Positions 2,875 through 50,606 of a DNA stretch of 64,000 nucleotides are shown in pieces. The stretch covers positions 47,832-111,831 of IMG/VR virus record IMGVR_UViG_3300025133_000040; one strand, 5' to 3'. This DNA is from a virus. The notes beneath the pieces are model-generated. The model saw only the letters and a list, made by a program, of their open reading frames with translations. It was not told the DNA's origin and ran no database searches. Each line of letters starts with the position of its first letter. Position 1 is the first letter of the stretch. Made by a program: the position numbers and the translations under genes.

Positions 2875-5199
2875 TTACACGATACACGCACCTCCTGCGC
2901 AGGCTATCGCCTCTTCTGGTGCTGTGTTGTCTTCCGTTTCAATCATAAGAAGGTAATCTACCTTCTGGAAGCTCTCTTTTAGGTCGCAATATCGTTTCCA
3001 GTTGTACACGTCCTTTAGGCAGTACGTCAGTTTTTTAGTGTCGTCACCAAAATATTTCTTAGCATACTTCTTTGCATTTCTCATAAAGTTTAGTCGCTTT
3101 GCAGCCAACTCAGCTATCTTGTGAAACTCTTCAACAGTTTCAGCATCGCCATCGAACGCATCCTTCCACTGGTCATTCAGGATAAAGTCACAAGCCGCCC
3201 ACAGGTCTTCGTCGAACACCTTTAAGGCGTCCTCAATAAGCCCTGAGGTCCATATAGCAGCGTCACCATACTCTCTCACGATTTCCTTGGAGGTGTACAC
3301 AGCCGTGAACGGTGCCTGTTTGTAGTCCTTGTCGCCTGATTGGGGCAGCAAAGAGATACCGCAAAAGTATTCTCGGTTACCGTAGATAAACTTGGAAACA
3401 TCACCCCATTCATCTGGTTGGACCGTTATAGTATTACTCACATTATGACGTAGCCAGGGTTGTGTACACAGGGATTCCCTTGTGCCTGCCTCAACCCAGT
3501 TTTGCTGAGTGCTTTTAACCAGTTTGAGTAGGTCAACAGCCGCCATTTGGTTTTTAGTCTTCGCTCCGTTAGGAACTTCAATAGGGAAGTAGATAACGTC
3601 GTCTGTTTTATTGGCTGACCACACCGATTCTTCGCACGCCTTAGGGTTCTTCATCTTGAAGAACTGATAAGGGGCTTCGTCTTTGTTGGCTTGCACCAGT
3701 CTCAAGTATCTCTTCGCATGGTGGGGGTGGATGCCTGAGCTAGTACCTAGCACACAACTTGATGTGCCTTCTGGCTTTAAGCATGTAGCACGAGCGGCTT
3801 GGTTGATGCCTATAGCCTTGGCTATCCTCTTGTTTGTGTCAAGCACAACCTGAGCACCCTCTCTTTGAATCTTAGGGTCAAGCACAATGTCGGTCTTCTC
3901 CATTGTACCTGTCATAGAGACACCTAAAAGGGCCTCTCGTCTAAATATAGCTTCCGAAGTAGCCCCCAAGTACGGGAACGAGGTGAACCCAGCTTGGAGA
4001 GTGCCAATAATTGCTGCGGCTTTACAGCGTTCAAGGAAATCTTCTTTGTCTTTGACCGAACCAGAGTTAATGGTACAGAGATTACATCCCTGCCAGCCAG
4101 ACTTGAGGCCAATTTTTCCAAGGTCGCCTGTGTATCCTCCACCTTTGTACTTCTCCATGTAGGCGTCATACTTTGCTTGGTCTACCACGTCGTAGCACCA
4201 GAACTGAATCTCAACACACGGATTAAACAGGGCTTCCTCGTCGTCGGCCCAGACAAACCCAGGCTCACCAAATTGCTTTGTATGCTCAAGCAACGCATTG
4301 AACTGCTCAAAGGAAGTCTTGCCACGAATAAGGATAGCTGAGTTGTTTGAACGAGCACGCTGAGGGTTCTCCTTGCGCCAGTTGCCAGTCTTAGCCCGAG
4401 CCATTTCCAAGTCGTCAGGACTGAAGATAGCAATAGTTGCTGAGCGTCGTACGCCGCCACTTAACACAGCGTCGGAGGTGTGCATACATAAGTCGTAAGC
4501 GTCGATGGGTCGTAAGCGAGTCTGGCCATCTGTGATACAGCGGTCTAGCAGCTCACGAATCTTCTCAAGGGAATTGCGTAGGCCGTCAGGACCAGGAGCT
4601 TTACCAGTACCAGCACTCAGGCGAGCACCTTTTTCTCTAATCTTACTGTAGTCAAATTCTACCTTGCCGCACTTGTCAGGGTCGTATTCAGCAAACTCTT
4701 CCATACCCTCTTGGACACCGAAGTAATTAGTAAGCAAGACACCTAGCGCATCTGACCAGCCCTCAATAGTGTCTGGTATCTCATATGTTTTCACATTAGA
4801 CTGCACGCCTACATAAAATGACGGCAGCTTAGCGACGTGGTGCTTCTGAACACTGAACCCTGCTCCACAACCACATAGCAAGAGCCAAAAGAACTCCTGA
4901 AAGAAACGGGGGCGGTCGCAGTAGCTTGACACGCAATTAAAACAGCGAGCGTGCTTCTTCATCATTGGCTTACCGCCAAACTGCAATGCTCGCTGACTTC
5001 CTAGGACACGTTTCTTGTGGGACATGTCATACGCCCAATTAATATCTTCCTCAATATTAAATTCAGAGTACTTGTCAAGCATCATACTTCGTACTCTGTC
5101 AATGGCTTCCTTCCAAGTCTCTCTTCTGTACTCTTTCTCTATCCACCTTGCGTACTTCGCTGTAAAGGTGTAACTCATTAGCTCTTGTGTTACCGACAT
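2875..5199 (-). CDS. nrdJ: monomeric class II (adenosylcobalamin-dependent) ribonucleoside-triphosphate reductase
   Basis: GGVRRSA, NPCVEI, CNLC, TCLKPEGTSS, C-terminal CAGGAC. Confidence 0.92.
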   Translation of the reverse strand: MSVTQELMSYTFTAKYARWIEKEYRRETWKEAIDRVRSMMLDKYSEFNIEEDINWAYDMSHKKRVLGSQRALQFGGKPMMKKHARCFNCVSSYCDRPRFFQEFFWLLLCGCGAGFSVQKHHVAKLPSFYVGVQSNVKTYEIPDTIEGWSDALGVLLTNYFGVQEGMEEFAEYDPDKCGKVEFDYSKIREKGARLSAGTGKAPGPDGLRNSLEKIRELLDRCITDGQTRLRPIDAYDLCMHTSDAVLSGGVRRSATIAIFSPDDLEMARAKTGNWRKENPQRARSNNSAILIRGKTSFEQFNALLEHTKQFGEPGFVWADDEEALFNPCVEIQFWCYDVVDQAKYDAYMEKYKGGGYTGDLGKIGLKSGWQGCNLCTINSGSVKDKEDFLERCKAAAIIGTLQAGFTSFPYLGATSEAIFRREALLGVSMTGTMEKTDIVLDPKIQREGAQVVLDTNKRIAKAIGINQAARATCLKPEGTSSCVLGTSSGIHPHHAKRYLRLVQANKDEAPYQFFKMKNPKACEESVWSANKTDDVIYFPIEVPNGAKTKNQMAAVDLLKLVKSTQQNWVEAGTRESLCTQPWLRHNVSNTITVQPDEWGDVSKFIYGNREYFCGISLLPQSGDKDYKQAPFTAVYTSKEIVREYGDAAIWTSGLIEDALKVFDEDLWAACDFILNDQWKDAFDGDAETVEEFHKIAELAAKRLNFMRNAKKYAKKYFGDDTKKLTYCLKDVYNWKRYCDLKESFQKVDYLLMIETEDNTAPEEAIACAGGACIV

Positions 5200-19271: not shown

Positions 19272-19832
19272 AAGAGAGCTTTAGCAGTTTATTCTCTCAG
19301 CTTGTGAGGTCAACCTGTTGGTTGACCACTACACGACCTATAACAGCCTTCGCAAGCTTCACCCCTGTCGTTGCAGCTTTAGACCGCACGCAACAGCACG
19401 TTAAATTAGTGGTAGTTGTTCTGGACTTGGTGATTGGTGGTTGCAGCCACCGAACCCCTCATTCGTAAATCTTCAAAGCCTGGGAAGCCAATCCGATTTA
19501 CCCCTTGCGGGCAGCGTCACCAACTTTCGCCGGTAACCGTAGGCACTTCCACCTACCACTATGGTATTTTATTTCCCAGATTCATATTAGCGATGAACCG
19601 ATGACGTACATCAGGAAAACACCCAAAAACTATCGTTCCTTCAAGCAGACACTTGGGATGGCACCCACGCTCTTGCTGTTCAGCTACTAGGTGATTTCTG
19701 TAATGCCACTTACATACTCCACCACGCACCACGACACTGTTAGGGCGATGGTAAGCCCCTCCAACGTACACGCTTTCGTCTATGCTGCAAGCAGCTTGGT
19801 CACCCGTCATACCGAAAGGGTAAACCAGTTTA
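19272..19832 (-). ncRNA. large structured ncRNA, ROOL-like (~560 nt)
   Basis: fills the gap between two tRNAs; many GNRA-capped hairpins; segment GGTGCGTGGTGGAGTATG...TAGCTGAA resembles ROOL as I recall it. Confidence 0.6.
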
Positions 19833-36964: not shown

Positions 36965-37228
36965 ATAAAAAGGCGAATCGTCTGACATTCGTCTAGGCTT
37001 TTCAGCCTTCCCCACCATTACGTGAATGTGGCAATTACTCACCACCCAAAGATGCACTAACCCGACTATCACTAGGTCGCTCACGCCCTAAGTCTGTTTA
37101 GCTTGCACGCATTGTGGTACAAGCGGCCTAAGCCTCCCACAAGGAGCGATTGTGCCCTGAACTTGTCCTCTAGGTGCTACGCACCCAGCGTCAGACTATA
37201 TAGCCAGGGTTCTGTAAATTCGTCTCAT
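36965..37228 (-). ncRNA. candidate independently transcribed structured RNA (~265 nt)
   Basis: own promoter, many hairpins, terminal hairpin plus T run, no ORF. Confidence 0.65.
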
Positions 37229-37234
37229 GTCTAA

Positions 37235-37262
37235 AGTATACACTAGAACGGGCTGGAGTCAA
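37235..37262 (-). promoter_or_regulatory. promoter TTGACT-N16-TATACT
   Basis: repeated motif. Confidence 0.8.
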
Positions 37263-37453: not shown

Positions 37454-37525
37454 TGCGACTGCTCGGTACTGCCCCGAGTTCTCTGAGTTGGAAGCCCAGC
37501 GTTCTACTATTTCTACTACAATCGC
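37454..37525 (-). tRNA. tRNA-Gly(UCC)
   Basis: loop CTTCCAA; atypical T-loop GGCAGTA. Confidence 0.8.
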
Positions 37526-37537
37526 GTGGTTAATCTT

Positions 37538-37684
37538 TTATCTAGCTCTATATGTCGTAGTTTCACCACAAGACCGACACCTGAAAAACGTCCTAAACTC
37601 AGACGACGGCGAAATGTCAACCATGTTAAAAGAATTACAGTCCTTGCAGACCGGAATAAACTTTCTTAGCAGTTTATAAAACAT
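37538..37684 (-). CDS. 48-aa zinc-ribbon protein (missing from the ORF track)
   Basis: AAGGAAAG RBS; MFYKLLRKFIPVCKDC...CRSCGETTTYRAR. Confidence 0.65.
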   Translation of the reverse strand: MFYKLLRKFIPVCKDCNSFNMVDISPSSEFRTFFRCRSCGETTTYRAR

Positions 37685-37702
37685 ATCTTTCCTTTCCTTA
37701 AG

Positions 37703-37774
37703 TGGGTCGCCGGGGAGTCGAACCCCGTCCTATTTCGTTAAGAGCGAAAAATGCAACCATTACACCTGCAACCC
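37703..37774 (-). tRNA. tRNA-Lys(CUU)
   Basis: loop CTCTTAA. Confidence 0.88.
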
Positions 37775-37778
37775 AAAG

Positions 37779-37849
37779 AGCCTCTGACTGGAATCGAACC
37801 AGTGTTTTCTCGATACCAACGAGATGCACTACCATTGTACTACAGAGGC
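37779..37849 (-). tRNA. tRNA-Thr(GGU)
   Basis: loop TTGGTAT. Confidence 0.9.
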
Positions 37850-37854
37850 TTAAG

Positions 37855-37926
37855 TACCCCGCCTCGGAATCGAACCGAGTCCTAACTGGTTAAAAGCCAG
37901 CAATGCTACCATGACACTCACAGGGC
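37855..37926 (-). tRNA. tRNA-Lys(UUU)
   Basis: loop CTTTTAA. Confidence 0.88.
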
Positions 37927-37932
37927 AAAATA

Positions 37933-38769
37933 AAAAGGGTCAATGAGACTATAATCACCATGAGTAATCTTTTGTTGTCGTACTCACAACGTCCGTTGGA
38001 CGATTTACGCCTCCGAAGAGAACTCCTGCCAGGGAGTCGATTAACAACGTGTCCACCTACCAAGTAGGTAATCACTCGCGACTGCAATATTTAAGAGCCT
38101 GCGTTAGCTCTATCTAAACAACTACTCAACCGCATCCATTAACTCTGCCTTGCGAGCAGTTCAACTCCGCTAGGAGTTTAGTCGCTTTCCTCGATTAACT
38201 TGATTGACCTTGCGAGTCGCCCAAGTCAGTATTACCCCGAAGGGCTACCGAATTAAGTCGCTTTCGTTGTCTAGTGTGTCAGGACTTTTGCTTTGGTTAA
38301 AAATACAGGAATCGAACCCATACAGATTGTTTGATACAACAATTGCCCTACCGTTAGGCTAATTTTCATTTGGCGAGAGACGTGCTGACACAGTTGCTCC
38401 ATATCCTTTTGGGATGCAGAATACAACACGCCTCTCTGTACAGAGTCTTGCGGACTCTTATACCGTAGTTCAAGAGAAGGTGTGCCCCCTCTCTCTCATA
38501 CTACCACATCCCACTTGTTTGCAGCTTGCAGAATGTAGTTACTGTTCCTTCCTCAGAAGTAAACTGTTAAATCCCTATCCCAGGCTATCACCTCTGGGAA
38601 GTAGTCGATAGTGTTACCCTCGTGCTACTTTCAGGCAGTCGTTCTTCCTATTGCCCATTACAGGACAACAAGGAAAGGTCAGCTTGAATGAATGGACTCT
38701 TACGAGCGACAGCTTGCCACGCTGCCTTTGGGGAGATTGCTCTCCTTACCCTAATGACTTCATACAGCC
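37933..38769 (-). ncRNA. GOLLD-like giant RNA (~840 nt)
   Basis: lies in a tRNA array; GTGTTGTATT..CAAAAGG..AGCAACTG segment, CTCGCAAG hairpins, 3' TAGTCTCA, embedded tRNA-like element. Confidence 0.75.
38294..38368 (-). ncRNA. tRNA-like element embedded in the GOLLD-like RNA
   Basis: D and T arms, encoded CCA, non-canonical anticodon loop TGTATCAA. Confidence 0.65.
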
Positions 38770-38772
38770 AAG

Positions 38773-38840
38773 TGGAGGTACAGGAAATCGAATCCTGCTA
38801 TCTTCTCTGCCAGAGAAAAATCTTGCCCACAAGCACCCCC
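38773..38840 (-). tRNA. tRNA-Ala(GGC), short D-arm
   Basis: loop CTGGCAG, G3:U70. Confidence 0.8.
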
Positions 38841-38910
38841 GTATCACTGATTCGTCCAGGCTGGCTCAGTGAAAGCCTTTTTAAATTCAACCGCCGCTGG
38901 CGGTGAACAG

Positions 38911-38983
38911 TGGACACAAAGGGAATCGAACCCTACACAACCGCATTGCAAGTGCAGTTCGCCCCCTTGGAACATGTGCGCCC
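38911..38983 (-). tRNA. tRNA-Ala(UGC)
   Basis: loop CTTGCAA, G3:U70. Confidence 0.88.
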
Positions 38984-39361
38984 TTAGTTTAGCACCCTGT
39001 CCAGCCACCAGTGCCAGTCAGGAAACTCTTCGTATAACTCGTATCTACACAGTATTCGCTCTCGAATATCTGTGTTCCACATTGCTACAGTAACGTCCAT
39101 CCAGTGCTTTCCAACAGCGTAGCCGTTGTACTTGTCGCCTGTCTGTTGGAATAACCCGAGTCTGAGGTCTCCCTCGCCACGAGATTCCCAGAGGAACATC
39201 GCAACCGCAGCGTCGTCGGAAAAGTCTAACACCTCAGACTCACCAGCGAAGTACTGGTAAATAGGCTGTATCCTTCTCCATTTCGTTGACGGCTTCGCCA
39301 TCAACTCAACAACTTCTATGCCCGCAGGCACAATCAACCTCAGAGACAGACCACGCTTCAC
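38984..39361 (-). CDS. hypothetical protein
   Basis: start probably MAKPST. Confidence 0.6.
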   Translation of the reverse strand: MKRGLSLRLIVPAGIEVVELMAKPSTKWRRIQPIYQYFAGESEVLDFSDDAAVAMFLWESRGEGDLRLGLFQQTGDKYNGYAVGKHWMDVTVAMWNTDIRERILCRYELYEEFPDWHWWLDRVLN

Positions 39362-39788
39362 GCCTTCCTAGCTTGATAACTTCATTGATTTTCTCAGACT
39401 CTACGATGCAACAAGCCATAAACCAAGCCTGAAACGCACCTTCGTCGTCCTTGAAAGCATATGCCATCTTAGCACACCGCTTAGCAAAGGCTTGAACATC
39501 ATCTGTTCTCGCTGAAAAATCTGTCTCTGTCAGCAACTCAATCATTGCTCCACCTTTATTCGGTGAAGAGTTGTCGCTGTGAATATATGTCTCTATAAGT
39601 CCAGGCATTAGGCCACCTTAAATCCAATCGTGATATTCCCGCTTTCCTGTGTACCCGCTGTATTCCCAATTGCATGTCAAGCACTTCTCCCAGTCGCCAG
39701 AGCTATCACGCTCGTGCTCGGAGTCGATACATTGCTGCATCGTTGTCTCTTCACAGTTTTCGCAGTATCGTTCATCATAATACATAAG

Positions 39789-41737: not shown

Positions 41738-42697
41738 CTAATCTTGAGGATATGTCCAACAATTTTCACATGGTGTTCCCTTTAGGTCTTTGGAAAGCAT
41801 TGCCTTCCTCAAATCCTGGTACTTCTGGCTATGCCAAGCCTCCATAAATGTCACTTCGTTTAAATCACCCATATCAAACTCATGGGTATGATTGAAACAA
41901 CAACCAGACATTTTACCGTCCCATGTGATTCTCGCCTCCCTAAAGAGAGCGAAGCATAAATCGGTCGTAAACGGTGCCCCGTAGCGACCAAAGTTTCCGA
42001 TGACGGGCTTCTTACCCATCGCCTCCATCTGTTCTAAATTAAGACCCGCCTGAGAGTACAAAGGAAGCCAGTAGTGCTCGTCCACATAGGGCCTCAGCTC
42101 TGCCACACTCTCTTCCATCTTCTCAAACTGCTCACCGTCATAGCGGATACTAGACAGGTACAAGCCACAGTCAGCCCCAAGTTCTTCTCGTACAGCGTAT
42201 GCGTCCTTAATGTTCTGGACCACTATATGAAAGTTTTTACCTGGAACTCTAGCCATTTCCTCAAACTGTTCTTCGTCTGAGCTGTTGAAACTAAACTTCA
42301 GACTGTCAAGTCCAGCCTCCATGCACTTTCTAACTGTTTCTTTCTTAGCTAACCGTCCGTTGGTTGTTAAGAATACATATGGGAACTTACAAACATTCTT
42401 AGCGTAATCAATTGCTTCCGGCAACCACTTACACAAGAATGACTCCCCTAGGAAAAACAACCCAATCTCTTCTACTCCGCTATCCCTTGCGTCTTTAACA
42501 GCCTTCTTAAAAAACTCTTTGTCCATTTCTGATTGCTCTCGCAACTTCAATGCCGTAGCGCAAAAGCTACATCGAAAATCACAATGAGCAGTAAGCTCGA
42601 TTTTCAAGGCGTGTGGACAAGGAGGCGTAACTGATTGACACTCTTCTGGAATTACCGTCACATTGTCAATTTTATCAGTGATTGTTCTTTTTTCCAC
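41738..42697 (-). CDS. radical SAM protein with SPASM/twitch domain
   Basis: CDFRCSFC, LGE, TTNG; C-terminal C...ITWDGKMSGCC...PCENC. Confidence 0.9.
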   Translation of the reverse strand: MEKRTITDKIDNVTVIPEECQSVTPPCPHALKIELTAHCDFRCSFCATALKLREQSEMDKEFFKKAVKDARDSGVEEIGLFFLGESFLCKWLPEAIDYAKNVCKFPYVFLTTNGRLAKKETVRKCMEAGLDSLKFSFNSSDEEQFEEMARVPGKNFHIVVQNIKDAYAVREELGADCGLYLSSIRYDGEQFEKMEESVAELRPYVDEHYWLPLYSQAGLNLEQMEAMGKKPVIGNFGRYGAPFTTDLCFALFREARITWDGKMSGCCFNHTHEFDMGDLNEVTFMEAWHSQKYQDLRKAMLSKDLKGTPCENCWTYPQD

Positions 42698-45155: not shown

Positions 45156-45740
45156 TCAAGGGAGTATTCTCACTTTTCCCAAATCAATTTGCTTTTGAAT
45201 GTATGCCGCCTCTTTTCCCCAGTTGTGCCCCCTGGACCCAACCCCGCTTTTTGGGTAGTAGTGCTTGAACTGCCCCTTATACCCCTCCACGTAGTCAAAC
45301 CCAGTGATATAAAAGGGCCTATCTAACACATCACAGAAGTACCCTATAGCTAATACACCTACAGAGCACCACTCCTTGCTTGGTTGGTTTATTCCTACTG
45401 CCTCACCAATTTTCTGACAGAACCCCGAACCCACATGTACGTATTTTTTATTATAGATGTTTCGTACGTTCTTAGCTCGTCCGTTCATAGACGCTGTGCC
45501 GCTACAATATGTGACAAAATTTATTACCTTTTTCAGGTCTGGAGCCTTACACCAATGAACGTCGTGGGTCGAGCGACGACAAAAGTAGTCAACTCGCTCG
45601 CCGCAGTCCCTCTCGAAACCCTTAACAACATAGTTGTTCATGCGAGACACAACACCAAAGGAATCAATCACCTCTCCCTTTCTCTTGTCTTTCAGGGTGG
45701 AGCCGTTACCAACTAGAATAAGCGTCTTTGAATAACTCAT
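45156..45740 (-). CDS. GT29 sialyltransferase-like protein
   Basis: LVGNG...GEVIDSF..VSRMN (sialylmotif L-like), SVG, GFD, HYY, H.W..E. Confidence 0.75.
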   Translation of the reverse strand: MSYSKTLILVGNGSTLKDKRKGEVIDSFGVVSRMNNYVVKGFERDCGERVDYFCRRSTHDVHWCKAPDLKKVINFVTYCSGTASMNGRAKNVRNIYNKKYVHVGSGFCQKIGEAVGINQPSKEWCSVGVLAIGYFCDVLDRPFYITGFDYVEGYKGQFKHYYPKSGVGSRGHNWGKEAAYIQKQIDLGKVRILP

Positions 45741-46455
45741 AATCCTCTCTTGTGTCTATTGACGGGAATTTCTCTGATACAATACATTTTATACTGAGCC
45801 CTTCTTCCATCCAGTGTAATTGCTCTAGGTTTTCTTCATAGGCTGCACTATATTCAAGAGGAGGGCCTAGTCGTTGTATCTCTTTCAATGTTGAGTACTT
45901 GAATCCGTAAATTCCGCTATGAATCCACCTAGATTCTGCGTTGTATGGAATTGGGGCACGAGAGAAATACATGGCCTCATCGTCACAATCCATAACCACT
46001 TTGACCATATTGGGGTTAGTGTGGTCTGAGTCGCTATCTAGATAGGCTAGGGTGGCTATTTGAGGTAGTAGGGGCTCATCGTGACTTAGTGTGCTAACAA
46101 TCCAATTGAGGTACTTCTCACCCTGCTCAGGCTTAAGGATGCAATCCCCCTGGACGTTGATGACAATATCATCGTCTTGGAGATTAAGTGTCCTTACGGC
46201 CTCAATCACGCGAGATGTTCCTGAGTCATGCGTGTAGGTCATTACACAATTACCGTCAAAGGCTTTAACAGCGTGGTCTATTTCTACGTCTTCAGTAGCC
46301 ACAAACACATACTTAGACTTAAAGCCCTTTACACCCTCGTATGCGTGTTGAATTAGGGGTTTACCCGTTTCTGCCAAGAGCATCTTGCCTGACAGTCTCT
46401 TGCTGTTCAACCTTGCCGGGAGCACTACTATTGTCCACGGATTCCTTCTTCTCAT
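45706..46455 (-). CDS. kdsB: 3-deoxy-manno-octulosonate cytidylyltransferase
   Basis: PARLNSKRLSGKML, SGTSR, NVQGD, YFSRAPIP, ENLEQL. Confidence 0.9.
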   Translation of the reverse strand: MRRRNPWTIVVLPARLNSKRLSGKMLLAETGKPLIQHAYEGVKGFKSKYVFVATEDVEIDHAVKAFDGNCVMTYTHDSGTSRVIEAVRTLNLQDDDIVINVQGDCILKPEQGEKYLNWIVSTLSHDEPLLPQIATLAYLDSDSDHTNPNMVKVVMDCDDEAMYFSRAPIPYNAESRWIHSGIYGFKYSTLKEIQRLGPPLEYSAAYEENLEQLHWMEEGLSIKCIVSEKFPSIDTREDYELFKDAYSSW

Positions 46456-50224: not shown

Positions 50225-50252
50225 TAAAAAAAGCCCCTCGATTGAGGGGCTG
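50225..50252 (-). terminator. tmRNA terminator
   Basis: AGCCCCTC AATC GAGGGGCT followed by a T run. Confidence 0.85.
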
Positions 50253-50254
50253 AG

Positions 50255-50606
50255 TGGAGATGCGGGGAGTCGAACCCCGGTTCTGCATTGAAACCACATA
50301 AACATTCTACGTGCATAGTAACTACTTTTTAGGTCGAGTAACCAGACCGATACGTCTTTCCGTAAGTCAAACCGCTCTTAAGCGGCCAAAGCAGCATCAA
50401 AACTGGATGCACTGACTACGCTGACCTGCGCAGTTGAGGTTCCGTTAAAGCTACGGAAGGAACTCTTTTTGGAAGGCGAACCAACCAAAGCAACATCAAA
50501 GCTGTTGTTAGCATTTAAAATTGTAAACGATTTTTTACGTGGCCCTTCGTTCAACCACGGCACGCTACTTACACTTTATCCAACCAGTCGATACCATTTC
50601 ATCCCC
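50255..50606 (-). ncRNA. ssrA: tmRNA
   Basis: 5' GGGGATGAAATGGTATCGAC, 3' GGTTCGACTCCCCGCATCTCCA, G3:U, tag frame ending ALAA*. Confidence 0.95.

What the first reader, a model, noticed from the sequence alone, without database searches (positions are those of the whole stretch)
37933..38769. GOLLD-like giant RNA carrying a non-decoding tRNA-like insert
Seen: ~840 nt without a real ORF between tRNA-Ala and tRNA-Lys, rich in GNRA/UUCG hairpins. A GTGTCAG/CTGACAC helix brackets an internal cloverleaf (38294-38368) with encoded CCA, an AU-rich acceptor and an abnormal anticodon loop. Known: GOLLD often embeds a tRNA in its variable region. Here the insert cannot plausibly decode, which suggests a processing or docking role.
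Basis: partly seen in the sequence, partly recalled or inferred. Interest (0 to 1): 0.72.

Follow-up and report, generated by a model that had tools for sequence, protein, structure and literature searches.

The report
GOLLD phage RNA with pseudo-tRNA insert
This gene-free stretch of a marine phage encodes a full member of the known GOLLD family of giant cage-forming RNAs, and the tRNA-shaped piece in its central linker looks unable to work as a tRNA; the layout is already described and is new here only in detail.

Summary
On the minus strand, 37943-38771 is a genuine GOLLD RNA. Rfam RF02032 matches 37943-38436 at 171.1 bits (cut-off 150) over the full model. It lies between an atypical tRNA-Ala(GGC) and tRNA-Lys(UUU) in a phage tRNA array.

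It is the conserved GOLLD helix that closes the variable linker, and it takes about 20 mutually complementary forms in other GOLLDs.

Inside the linker, 38294-38368 folds as a cloverleaf (Rfam tRNA 48.9 bits) with canonical D and T loops. Four features set it apart from a working tRNA:
- Its acceptor stem has no G-C pair.
- Its anticodon loop has 8 nt (or a 6-bp stem with a 6-nt loop).
- It reads ACCA, fused to the conserved AAAGCAAAAGUC.
- All 29 other tRNAs of the window have 7-nt loops, 2-5 acceptor G-C pairs, no CCA and an N73-C-U trailer.

Three DNA data sets carry the identical sequence. About 15 other GOLLD lineages carry similar non-canonical inserts.

I read it as a tethered, non-decoding tRNA-shaped module. 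Its role is inferred, not shown.

tRNAs and a pseudo-tRNA in this linker are already published, and this scan has noted the same layout in at least 44 other genomes. Verdict: new member of a known kind, with modest interest.

The parts
37943..38771 (-). Whole GOLLD RNA, about 829 nt and 46% G+C, from just after tRNA-Ala(GGC) to 16 nt before tRNA-Lys(UUU).
   Evidence: The Rfam hit sets the 3' end at 37943. The 5' limit is inferred from the flanking tRNA at 38772-38840 and from the cover by related RNA-library contigs, which reaches about 38752.
38437..38771 (-). GOLLD 5' domain, the variable half, which the Rfam model does not cover.
   Evidence: The stretch is ORF-free and rich in GNRA hairpins. 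Contigs 85-95% identical to it, from a marine-sediment RNA library, cover 38360-38752. Homology to other 5' domains was not tested.
37943..38436 (-). Conserved GOLLD region matched by Rfam RF02032: the hairpin before the linker, the linker, and the 3' domain.
   Evidence: cmscan gives 171.1 bits against a gathering score of 150, E = 2.6e-46, model positions 1-416 of 416, not truncated.
38375..38436 (-). Hairpin just 5' of the linker (GAGAGGCGUG...CACGUCUCUC). Its internal loop carries the 5' strand of the linker-closing helix.
   Evidence: It aligns to Rfam model positions 1-62 with posterior probabilities near 1.
38385..38392 (-). 5' strand of the linker-closing helix (RNA UGUGUCAG).
   Evidence: It is an exact complement of 38275-38282 and pairs in the minimum-energy fold. 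The equivalent helix is fully paired in 67 of 200 motif sites examined, against 11 for a control 6-mer, in 20 different sequence forms, a few probably chance.
38369..38374 (-). 6-nt spacer (GCCAAA) between the hairpin and the tRNA-like insert.
   Evidence: Read directly from the sequence.
38294..38368 (-). tRNA-shaped insert in the GOLLD linker. It has an all-A-U/G-U acceptor, canonical D loop (AACGGUA) and T loop (UUCGAUU), and an ACCA tail.
   Evidence: ARAGORN calls it 'tRNA-??? (at)'. Rfam tRNA gives 48.9 bits. It has 36% G+C and no acceptor G-C pair, against a median of 56% and 2-5 pairs for the window's 29 tRNAs. It is at most 63% identical to any tRNA of the window.
38331..38338 (-). 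Abnormal anticodon loop UGUAUCAA: 8 nt on the 5-bp stem AUUGU/ACAAU, or 6 nt (GUAUCA) if the flanking U-A pair forms.
   Evidence: The Rfam alignment shows one inserted base after position 32. RNAfold predicts a 6-bp stem with a 6-nt loop. Among 303 control tRNAs from the same loci, 302 have 7-nt loops.
38283..38294 (-). Conserved GOLLD motif AAAGCAAAAGUC. Its first A is also the last A of the insert's CCA.
   Evidence: It aligns to Rfam model positions about 129-140. The motif was used as the anchor to retrieve other GOLLDs.
38275..38282 (-). 3' strand of the linker-closing helix (RNA CUGACACA).
   Evidence: It is complementary to 38385-38392, and the helix covaries across the family.
38772..38840 (-). 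Flanking atypical tRNA-Ala(GGC), 69 nt with a short D arm and G3-U70. It probably defines the GOLLD 5' end.
   Evidence: ARAGORN calls it at -ps95 and Rfam tRNA gives 18.4 bits, below the cut-off. It is followed by A-C-U, like the 29 other tRNAs.
37854..37926 (-). Flanking tRNA-Lys(UUU), 16 nt after the GOLLD 3' end. It probably defines that end through RNase P cleavage.
   Evidence: ARAGORN and Rfam at 42.4 bits both call it. The processing role is inferred.

Best explanation
The region is a complete GOLLD RNA of a marine phage. It is made as part of a long tRNA-array transcript. Its ends are probably cut out by the normal trimming of the neighbouring tRNAs, tRNA-Ala(GGC) upstream and tRNA-Lys(UUU) downstream.

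As in solved GOLLDs, the 5' and 3' domains should build a multimeric RNA cage whose variable J13/15 linker points inward. Here a conserved 8-bp helix closes that linker. The linker holds a tRNA-shaped module that keeps the tRNA body (D arm, T arm, elbow and anticodon stem) but not what a decoder needs.

I read the module as a tethered, non-decoding tRNA look-alike that stays covalently part of GOLLD, one copy per subunit inside the cage. Its job would be to offer a tRNA shape to some tRNA-binding partner, or to serve as structural filling.

Shown here: GOLLD identity, the helix and its covariation, the abnormal features of the insert, and the recurrence of such inserts in other GOLLD lineages. 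Inferred: co-transcription, end formation, cage assembly, non-release, and any partner.
For: GOLLD identity:
- Rfam gives 171.1 bits over the full model.

Linker-closing helix:
- It is 8 bp here.
- In other GOLLDs the same helix appears as GGCGAU/AUCGCC, GGCAAU/AUUGCC, CCUACU/AGUAGG, GGGGAA/UUUCCC, GUUCCA/UGGAAC, CCUGAA/UUCAGG and others: 20 forms in the scan, a few probably chance. 67 sites are fully paired, against 11 for a control 6-mer.

The insert differs from working tRNAs:
- Its loop is 8 or 6 nt, and the acceptor has no G-C pair.
- The acceptor stem does not form in the thermodynamic fold.
- It has 36% G+C, against 42-64% for the window's tRNAs.
- It reads A-CCA, whereas all 29 window tRNAs read N73-C-U and none encodes CCA.
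- It is not a recent copy of any tRNA in the window (at most 63% identity).
- The identical sequence occurs in three DNA data sets.

Census of other GOLLDs:
- Inserts were examined in GOLLDs verified by Rfam or recognised by their flanks, giving 28 distinct inserts in about 15 lineages.
- Loops that are not 7 nt occur in 4 of 15 lineages, against 1 of 303 control tRNAs from the same loci (p = 1.6e-5).
- Acceptors with at most one G-C pair occur in 5 of 15 lineages, against 1 of 303 (p = 7e-7).
- Acceptors with fewer than 7 pairs occur in 10 of 15 lineages, against 37 of 303.
- A34 anticodons (AGG, AAG, AUG, AUU, ACU) are common among the inserts.
- One scaffold lineage (acceptor GAUUUUU) carries UCU, UAU, GUG, CUC, AGG, AAG, GAC and a 4-base loop. 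The anticodon is therefore not conserved while the stems stay paired.

Transcription unit:
- No sigma-70-like promoter is found in 37600-39400. The first minus-strand terminator lies at 37653-37638, after the next tRNAs.

Literature:
- The linker faces the cage interior, and tRNAs are sometimes present in it (PMC12286853).
- A pseudo-tRNA inside a Mycobacterium GOLLD gave no separate signal on Northern blots (PMC6582537).
- An embedded tRNA in J13/15 has been proposed to be held back from maturation (PMC12990946).
Against: - No expression or end-mapping data exist for this locus. Only contigs could be laid, and the RNA-library contigs come from 85-95% relatives that do not cover the insert.
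- The acceptor stem here is complete (7 of 7 pairs) with an ACCA tail and a canonical elbow. RNase P recognition and release of the insert are therefore not excluded.
- 8-nt anticodon loops can decode in a few natural and suppressor tRNAs (my own knowledge: yeast mitochondrial tRNA-Thr1 and the suf frameshift suppressors).
- The census inserts were found through a pattern that requires a T loop within 30 nt of the GOLLD motif, and most were then called by ARAGORN. The conservation of the T arm and the cloverleaf covariation are therefore partly built in by selection.
- No close relative of this particular insert was found, so purifying selection on it cannot be measured directly.
Confidence: 0.6

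Rival explanations
1. Processing site. The insert is recognised by RNase P at its 5' side, and perhaps by a 3' endonuclease. GOLLD would then be nicked or split into a 5' and a 3' piece. The pieces would stay together through the 8-bp linker-closing helix and the 10-bp outer stem of the preceding hairpin.
For: - The acceptor here has a full 7 pairs, an A73 discriminator and an encoded CCA, with canonical D and T loops that form the elbow RNase P reads.
- The helices flanking the linker could hold the two halves together.
- About half of the other GOLLD inserts also carry CCA just before the conserved motif.
Against: - The acceptor is the least conserved helix of the inserts (87% of cells paired, against 97-99% for the other arms).
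- It is truncated or mispaired in several lineages (L035, L041, L183, L193), so processing cannot be the general role.
- The acceptor here is so weak that it does not form in the predicted fold.
- The final A of the CCA is part of the invariant AAAGCAAAAGUC, which a 3' cut would destroy.
- A published Northern blot found no separate pseudo-tRNA species for a Mycobacterium GOLLD (PMC6582537).
Confidence: 0.15
2. Decaying passenger. A once-functional tRNA landed in, or was captured by, the tolerant variable linker and is now eroding neutrally, with no role of its own.
For: - The linker is the most variable part of GOLLD, and most GOLLDs hold no tRNA there. Only 2 of the 80 loci found with the motif alone had one, and many of those loci are not GOLLDs.
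- The abnormal loop and the A-U-only acceptor are what decay would produce.
- Anticodons differ freely among related inserts.
Against: - All four arms still pair here, and the D and T loops are canonical (Rfam 48.9 bits, mid-range for this phage's own tRNAs).
- In related inserts the stems change by compensatory pairs rather than breaking: 94.5% of cells are paired and 19 of 21 pairs change on both sides (with the selection caveat).
- A-U-rich acceptors recur in independent lineages, which looks like a shared property rather than random damage.
Confidence: 0.15
3. Real tRNA held in storage. The insert is a working tRNA with an expanded anticodon loop. Read with the extra base before U33, the anticodon is AUC; alternatively it could be a four-base decoder. 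The tRNA would be released from GOLLD when needed.
For: - The cloverleaf, elbow, 7-bp acceptor, A73 and CCA are all present.
- An 'inhibited storage' idea for tRNAs embedded in GOLLD has been published (PMC12990946).
- 8-nt loops decode in rare known cases (my own knowledge).
Against: - There is no U33 in the normal place. A34 is very unusual in bacterial decoders except with ACG.
- The phage already has tRNA-Asp(GUC) for GAY codons.
- The acceptor has no G-C pair, against 2-5 in all 29 tRNAs of the phage.
- The 3' trailer differs from the phage's uniform N73-C-U.
- Only 1 of the 303 control tRNAs has a loop that is not 7 nt.
- No identity set for any amino acid is recognisable, and the nearest tRNAs are only 69% identical and of mixed types.
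Confidence: 0.07

Closest known systems
GOLLD RNA (Rfam RF02032). Solved cages: env-38 14-mer (PDB 9MEE) and Streptococcus agalactiae 12-mer (PDB 9L0R), as listed in PMC12990946 and PMC12286853.
   Same: - The covariance model matches in full, above Rfam's cut-off.
- The 3' domain motifs are conserved, including AAAGCAAAAGUC.
- The linker-closing helix is present.
- The total length (about 830 nt) is close to that of env-38 (833 nt).
- The RNA is encoded by a phage inside a tRNA array.
   Different: - The sequence is not close to any GOLLD retrieved here (no blastn match beyond 70 nt).
- The 5' domain was not compared with known ones.
- The host is unknown (marine metagenome).
- Multimerisation is not tested.
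GOLLDs with a tRNA or pseudo-tRNA in the J13/15 linker: Mycobacterium aubagnense pseudo-tRNA (PMC6582537), Mycolicibacterium tRNA-Phe (Morgado 2020, as cited in PMC12990946), and 'tRNAs sometimes present in the linker' (PMC12286853).
   Same: - A cloverleaf sits in the same place, abutting the conserved motif.
- It is not a normal decoder.
- The mycobacterial-type provirus GOLLDs retrieved here (L090, L094, L096-L098) also have a U-NNNNNN-A loop of 8 nt, or a 6-bp stem with a 6-nt loop. Their relative L084 has a 7-nt loop instead.
   Different: - The insert here has a complete 7-pair acceptor with ACCA but not one G-C pair.
- Its loop sequence (UGUAUCAA) is unrelated to the mycobacterial one.
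- It is only 60-69% identical to other inserts, so it is a separate lineage.
Tethered tRNA-like elements in other large RNAs: plant-virus 3' tRNA-like structures and the mascRNA element of MALAT1 (from my own knowledge, not tested here).
   Same: A tRNA-shaped fold is built into a larger RNA and read by tRNA-processing or tRNA-binding factors rather than used for decoding.
   Different: Those elements lie at the 3' end and are either aminoacylated or cleaved off. This one is internal, closed by a helix, and predicted to face the inside of an RNA cage.

Membership tests
GOLLD RNA (RF02032) | The covariance-model score reaches Rfam's gathering cut-off of 150 bits. | tested here: met
   171.1 bits, E = 2.6e-46, model positions 1-416 of 416, not truncated.
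GOLLD RNA (RF02032) | The conserved motif AAAGCAAAAGUC lies at the 3' end of the variable linker, followed by a strand that pairs back to the segment just 5' of GCAC in the preceding hairpin. | tested here: met
   The motif is at 38283-38294. The helix pairs 38385-38392 with 38275-38282 (8 bp). The same helix covaries in other GOLLDs.
GOLLD RNA (RF02032) | A large, less conserved structured 5' domain precedes the conserved 3' region. | tested here: inconclusive
   335 ORF-free nt with GNRA hairpins lie at 38437-38771, and related contigs from an RNA library cover 38360-38752. No model of the 5' domain was available. Mapping the relatives' differences onto the minimum-energy fold gave a mixed result.
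GOLLD RNA (RF02032) | Phage or prophage context, usually next to tRNA genes. | tested here: met
   The source is a virus record of 111.8 kb. The window holds 30 ARAGORN calls, including the insert, plus a tmRNA. tRNAs directly flank the GOLLD.
GOLLD RNA (RF02032) | Self-assembly into a closed homo-oligomeric cage. | not testable with these tools
   This needs in vitro transcription followed by native gels or cryo-EM.
Functional (decoding) tRNA | A cloverleaf with conserved D-loop GG and T-loop UUCRA, which form the elbow. | tested here: met
   Rfam tRNA gives 48.9 bits against a cut-off of 29. The D loop is AACGGUA, the T loop is UUCGAUU, and G53-C61 is present.
Functional (decoding) tRNA | A 7-nt anticodon loop with U33 before the anticodon and a purine at position 37. 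| tested here: not met
   The loop is UGUAUCAA (8 nt) on a 5-bp stem, or GUAUCA (6 nt) on a 6-bp stem. All 29 window tRNAs and 302 of 303 control tRNAs have 7-nt loops.
Functional (decoding) tRNA | A stable acceptor stem and the 3'-end context shared by the genome's other tRNAs. | tested here: not met
   The stem has 7 pairs but no G-C pair, and it is absent from the minimum-energy fold. The window's tRNAs have 2-5 G-C pairs. The insert is followed by A-CCA fused to the GOLLD motif, whereas all 29 tRNAs read N73-C-U and none encodes CCA.
Functional (decoding) tRNA | Release as a free molecule of about 75 nt, aminoacylation, and use on the ribosome. | not testable with these tools
   No raw RNA reads of this phage were available. 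The one RNA library holds only diverged relatives as contigs, and they do not cover the insert.

The most novel reading that the evidence does not exclude
GOLLD linker inserts may be a distinct class of tethered tRNA mimics under selection, not stray tRNAs. They would share an A-U-rich or open acceptor, a conserved body and elbow, and a fast-changing, often non-canonical anticodon loop. The cage would then display up to 14 copies to a tRNA-binding partner. One example would be bait for host anticodon nucleases or other tRNA-directed defence enzymes, with loop changes tracking the host enzyme.
Probability: 0.15. Interest if true: 0.75.

Novelty: new member of a known kind. Interest (0 to 1): 0.3.

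Why it matters
The function of GOLLD is still unknown, even though its cage structures have been solved. The tRNA-shaped inserts in the inward-facing linker are one of the few clues to what the cage handles.

This locus adds a clean, independently re-sequenced example from a marine phage. The insert keeps the tRNA body but differs in every checkable respect from the 29 working tRNAs encoded beside it.

The small census made here suggests that such inserts are mostly look-alikes rather than stored tRNAs. That argues against a simple 'tRNA storage' role and can be tested in vitro.

The locus itself does not change what is known. The layout is published, and this scan has already noted it in at least 44 other genomes.

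Tried and rejected
Searches for close relatives of this GOLLD, needed to measure selection on the insert:
- blastn against phage GenBank records gave only a 57-nt match.
- blastn against all 200 or so fetched loci gave only a 70-nt match.
- An exact 22-mer from the linker flank found nothing in viral or metagenome contigs.
- A neighbouring protein found no relative in viral contigs.

Filters for telling real GOLLDs from chance motif hits:
- A sequence-only nhmmer profile of the 3' domain was too insensitive.
- A crude motif filter also failed.
- I used Rfam through the genome search instead. In large genomes that search scored only 21 candidates per genome, so its negatives there are weak.
- Most hits of the T-loop-plus-motif pattern in genome contigs are chance matches in coding DNA.

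Docking test:
- I looked for perfect 5- and 6-nt complements of each insert's anticodon loop elsewhere in its own GOLLD.
- Hits were no more frequent than for loops swapped between loci, and they fell at no conserved position.

5' domain:
- I mapped the differences seen in related RNA-library contigs onto the minimum-energy fold of the 5' domain.
- The result mixed pair-keeping and pair-breaking changes. The difference list was incomplete and the fold is unreliable.

Origin of the insert:
- No tRNA type stands out. The best matches are 69% identical and include Arg, Glu, His and others.

RNA library X10:
- Its contigs do not cover 38318-38356. This may only mean that the relatives' linkers differ, so I draw no conclusion on processing.

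Two papers (Weinberg 2009 and Morgado 2020) could not be read in the held library. What I say of them comes from papers that cite them.
Full report
**What is there**

The window is part of an IMG/VR virus record of 111.8 kb, estimated 74% complete. Nearly all ORFs of 150 aa or more lie on the minus strand. ARAGORN finds 30 tRNA-type genes on that strand. Rfam at gathering thresholds finds one GOLLD, one tmRNA and 23 tRNAs, and nothing else.

The GOLLD match (RF02032) covers 37943-38436 on the minus strand. It scores 171.1 bits against a cut-off of 150, with E = 2.6e-46. It spans model positions 1-416 of 416 without truncation. No ORF over 65 aa overlaps the stretch.

The Rfam model covers only the hairpin before the linker, the linker and the conserved 3' domain. 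The variable 5' domain must therefore lie upstream, at 38437-38771.

Directly upstream, 38772-38840 folds as a cloverleaf. Rfam scores it at only 18.4 bits. ARAGORN calls it tRNA-Ala(GGC) once its threshold is lowered by 5%. It has G3-U70 and the same A-C-U trailer as the phage's other tRNAs, so I take it as a real but atypical tRNA.

Downstream, tRNA-Lys(UUU) starts 16 nt after the end of the GOLLD match. The GOLLD is thus about 829 nt, close to the 833 nt of the solved env-38 GOLLD (PMC12990946).

No sigma-70-like promoter is seen in 37600-39400. The first minus-strand terminator-like site lies at 37653-37638, after three more tRNAs. I therefore infer co-transcription with the array and release of GOLLD by trimming of the flanking tRNAs.

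**The bracketing helix**

In RNA sense they read UGUGUCAG and CUGACACA, 8 bp, and they pair in the minimum-energy fold.

The 5' strand sits in the internal loop of the hairpin that opens the Rfam model, just before the conserved GCAC. The 3' strand follows the conserved AAAGCAAAAGUC.

I looked at the same two places in other GOLLDs. Of 200 motif sites in the fetched loci, 67 have a perfect 6-bp helix there, against 11 for a control 6-mer. The helix occurs in 20 different sequence forms, a few of which are probably chance. Examples are GGCGAU/AUCGCC, GGCAAU/AUUGCC, CCUACU/AGUAGG, GGGGAA/UUUCCC, GUUCCA/UGGAAC and CCUGAA/UUCAGG.

So the helix is a conserved, covarying GOLLD feature that closes the variable linker. 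It is not something special to this locus. The published structures place this linker (J13/15) inside the cage (PMC12286853, PMC12990946).

**The insert**

In RNA sense, 38294-38368 reads as follows:
- acceptor UGAAAAU
- UA
- D arm GCCU-AACGGUA-GGGC
- A
- anticodon stem AUUGU, loop UGUAUCAA, stem ACAAU
- CUGU
- T arm AUGGG-UUCGAUU-CCUGU
- acceptor AUUUUUA
- ACCA

Rfam's tRNA model gives 48.9 bits, which is mid-range for this phage's tRNAs. The alignment shows one inserted base in the anticodon loop. ARAGORN reports 'tRNA-???' with a two-base anticodon, meaning a 6-bp stem and a 6-nt loop. RNAfold predicts the same, and it does not form the acceptor stem at all.

The last A of the CCA is the first A of the invariant AAAGCAAAAGUC. 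On the 5' side only six bases (GCCAAA) separate the insert from the preceding hairpin.

Compared with the 29 other tRNAs of the window, the insert is an outlier in every feature I could check:

| Feature | Insert | 29 window tRNAs |
|---|---|---|
| Anticodon loop | 8 or 6 nt | always 7 nt |
| Acceptor G-C pairs | 0 | 2-5 |
| G+C content | 36% | 42-64% (median 56%) |
| After the acceptor | A-CCA | N73-C-U in all 29; no CCA |

The insert is at most 63% identical to any tRNA of the window. It is at most 69% identical to any of 303 tRNAs from the other loci. It is therefore not a recent local copy, and no amino-acid type can be assigned.

**Is the odd loop an assembly error?**

Contigs from a 2017 marine metagenome (X1) and from two 2022 samples (X4, X6) match with no difference. 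X6 is not flagged as a possible source, and its contig covers 38131-38522. The sequence is therefore reproducible.

A marine-sediment RNA library (X10) holds contigs 85-95% identical to 37979-38267 and to 38360-38752. This suggests that related GOLLDs are transcribed, although DNA carry-over cannot be excluded. These contigs do not cover the insert, so they say nothing about its processing.

**Other GOLLDs with inserts**

I scanned viral, genome and metagenome contigs for a T-loop pattern within 30 nt of the GOLLD motif. Real GOLLDs were confirmed with Rfam or recognised by their flanks. This gave 28 distinct inserts in about 15 lineages. Many are non-canonical.

- **Loop length.** 8- or 6-nt loops occur in the window, in L193/L207 (UAUAUUAA), in the mycobacterial-type provirus group L090, L094 and L096-L098 (UAUUGGAA), and in L195.
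- **Missing U33.** L180 and L194 lack U33.
- **A34 anticodons.** AGG, AAG, AUG, AUU and ACU all occur.
- **Acceptor stems.** L035, L041, L183 and L193 have truncated or mispaired acceptors.
- **A-U-rich acceptors.** These occur in many lineages.

At lineage level, against the 303 control tRNAs from the same loci:

| Feature | Insert lineages | Control tRNAs | p |
|---|---|---|---|
| Loop not 7 nt | 4 of 15 | 1 of 303 | 1.6e-5 |
| At most one acceptor G-C pair | 5 of 15 | 1 of 303 | 7e-7 |
| Fewer than 7 acceptor pairs | 10 of 15 | 37 of 303 | 3e-6 |

One GOLLD lineage has a constant acceptor (GAUUUUU...) but carries UCU, UAU, GUG, CUC, AGG, AAG, GAC and a four-base loop. Its stems stay paired throughout.

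Across 26 inserts the cloverleaf is 94.5% paired, and 19 of 21 pairs change on both sides. The acceptor is the least well kept helix, at 87%.

There is a caveat. The inserts were selected through a T-loop pattern, and most were called by ARAGORN. Cloverleaf covariation is therefore partly built in.

In an unselected sample of 80 motif hits, many of them not GOLLDs, only two had a tRNA in the linker.

**Mechanism**

The best-supported reading is a tethered, non-decoding tRNA-shaped module. What is shown is the following:
- the GOLLD identity;
- the position of the insert in the inward-facing linker;
- the intact tRNA body and elbow;
- the abnormal loop and acceptor;
- the contrast with the phage's own tRNAs;
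- the recurrence of such look-alikes in other GOLLDs.

Cage assembly is inferred from the family structures in PMC12286853. That the module stays attached is inferred from its fusion to the invariant motif. It is also consistent with the published failure to detect a separate pseudo-tRNA in Mycobacterium aubagnense (PMC6582537). What the module binds is unknown.

A test for base-pairing between insert loops and the rest of each GOLLD was negative. Three rivals remain:
- RNase P nicking, plausible here because the acceptor and CCA are complete;
- neutral decay of a passenger tRNA;
- a stored real tRNA with an expanded loop.

**Comparison with what is known, and novelty**

tRNAs in the GOLLD linker are mentioned in PMC12286853. 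A pseudo-tRNA inside GOLLD is described in PMC6582537. An embedded tRNA-Phe in J13/15, with a 'storage' idea, is in PMC12990946.

This scan's own notes list 49 earlier findings of GOLLD with a tRNA-like linker insert in at least 44 genomes. None is from DNA resembling this window.

The locus is therefore a new member of a known kind. Its particular loop and its all-A-U acceptor with ACCA are details. The more general idea, that these inserts form a selected class of tRNA mimics, is not excluded and would be interesting. It rests here on a small and partly biased census.

Noticed in passing
window 38772-38840 (-): An atypical 69-nt tRNA-Ala(GGC) with a short D arm and G3-U70. Default ARAGORN misses it and it scores below Rfam's cut-off (18.4 bits). 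ARAGORN calls it at -ps95. It carries the same A-C-U trailer as the other tRNAs and abuts the GOLLD 5' end.
   Followed up: partly
window, all 29 ARAGORN tRNAs (18443-44615, -): Every tRNA is followed by N73-C-T and none encodes CCA. This uniform 3' signature suggests one dedicated 3'-end maturation route. The GOLLD insert alone reads A-CCA.
   Followed up: partly
window 37454-37525 (-): Rfam tRNA match of 38.1 bits that ARAGORN does not call. Its T loop is unusual (GGGGCAGUACCGAG).
   Followed up: no
window 50252-50606 (-): A phage-encoded tmRNA (Rfam RF00023, 119.2 bits, full model).
   Followed up: no
window 1-64000: The Rfam gathering-level scan shows no ROOL and no RNase P RNA. Other first-reader notes on this genome propose a ROOL-like RNA at 19272-19832 and an RNase P-like RNA at 36970-37262.
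   Followed up: no
window 41738-42697 (-) and 45156-46455 (-): A radical SAM/SPASM protein gene lies inside the tRNA array. A cytidylyltransferase gene and a sialyltransferase-like gene lie next to it.
   Followed up: no
L201:855-926 (+); L195:2595-2669 (-); L183 around 5000-5100 (+): Other GOLLD linker inserts show further oddities. One has a UUA (ochre) anticodon, one has an 8-nt loop AUUUCAGA, and one is a tRNA body with no acceptor stem.
   Followed up: partly
L180, L196, L205 (same GOLLD lineage): These nearly identical inserts differ in the anticodon loop (UAGUGGA against AUAGGGA), as if by a shift of one base. They also carry 14 extra nt between the CCA and the GOLLD motif.
   Followed up: no
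run X10 laid on window 37979-38752: A marine-sediment RNA library holds several 85-95% relatives of both GOLLD domains. One contig skips 38156-38224 (69 nt) in the 3' domain.
   Followed up: no
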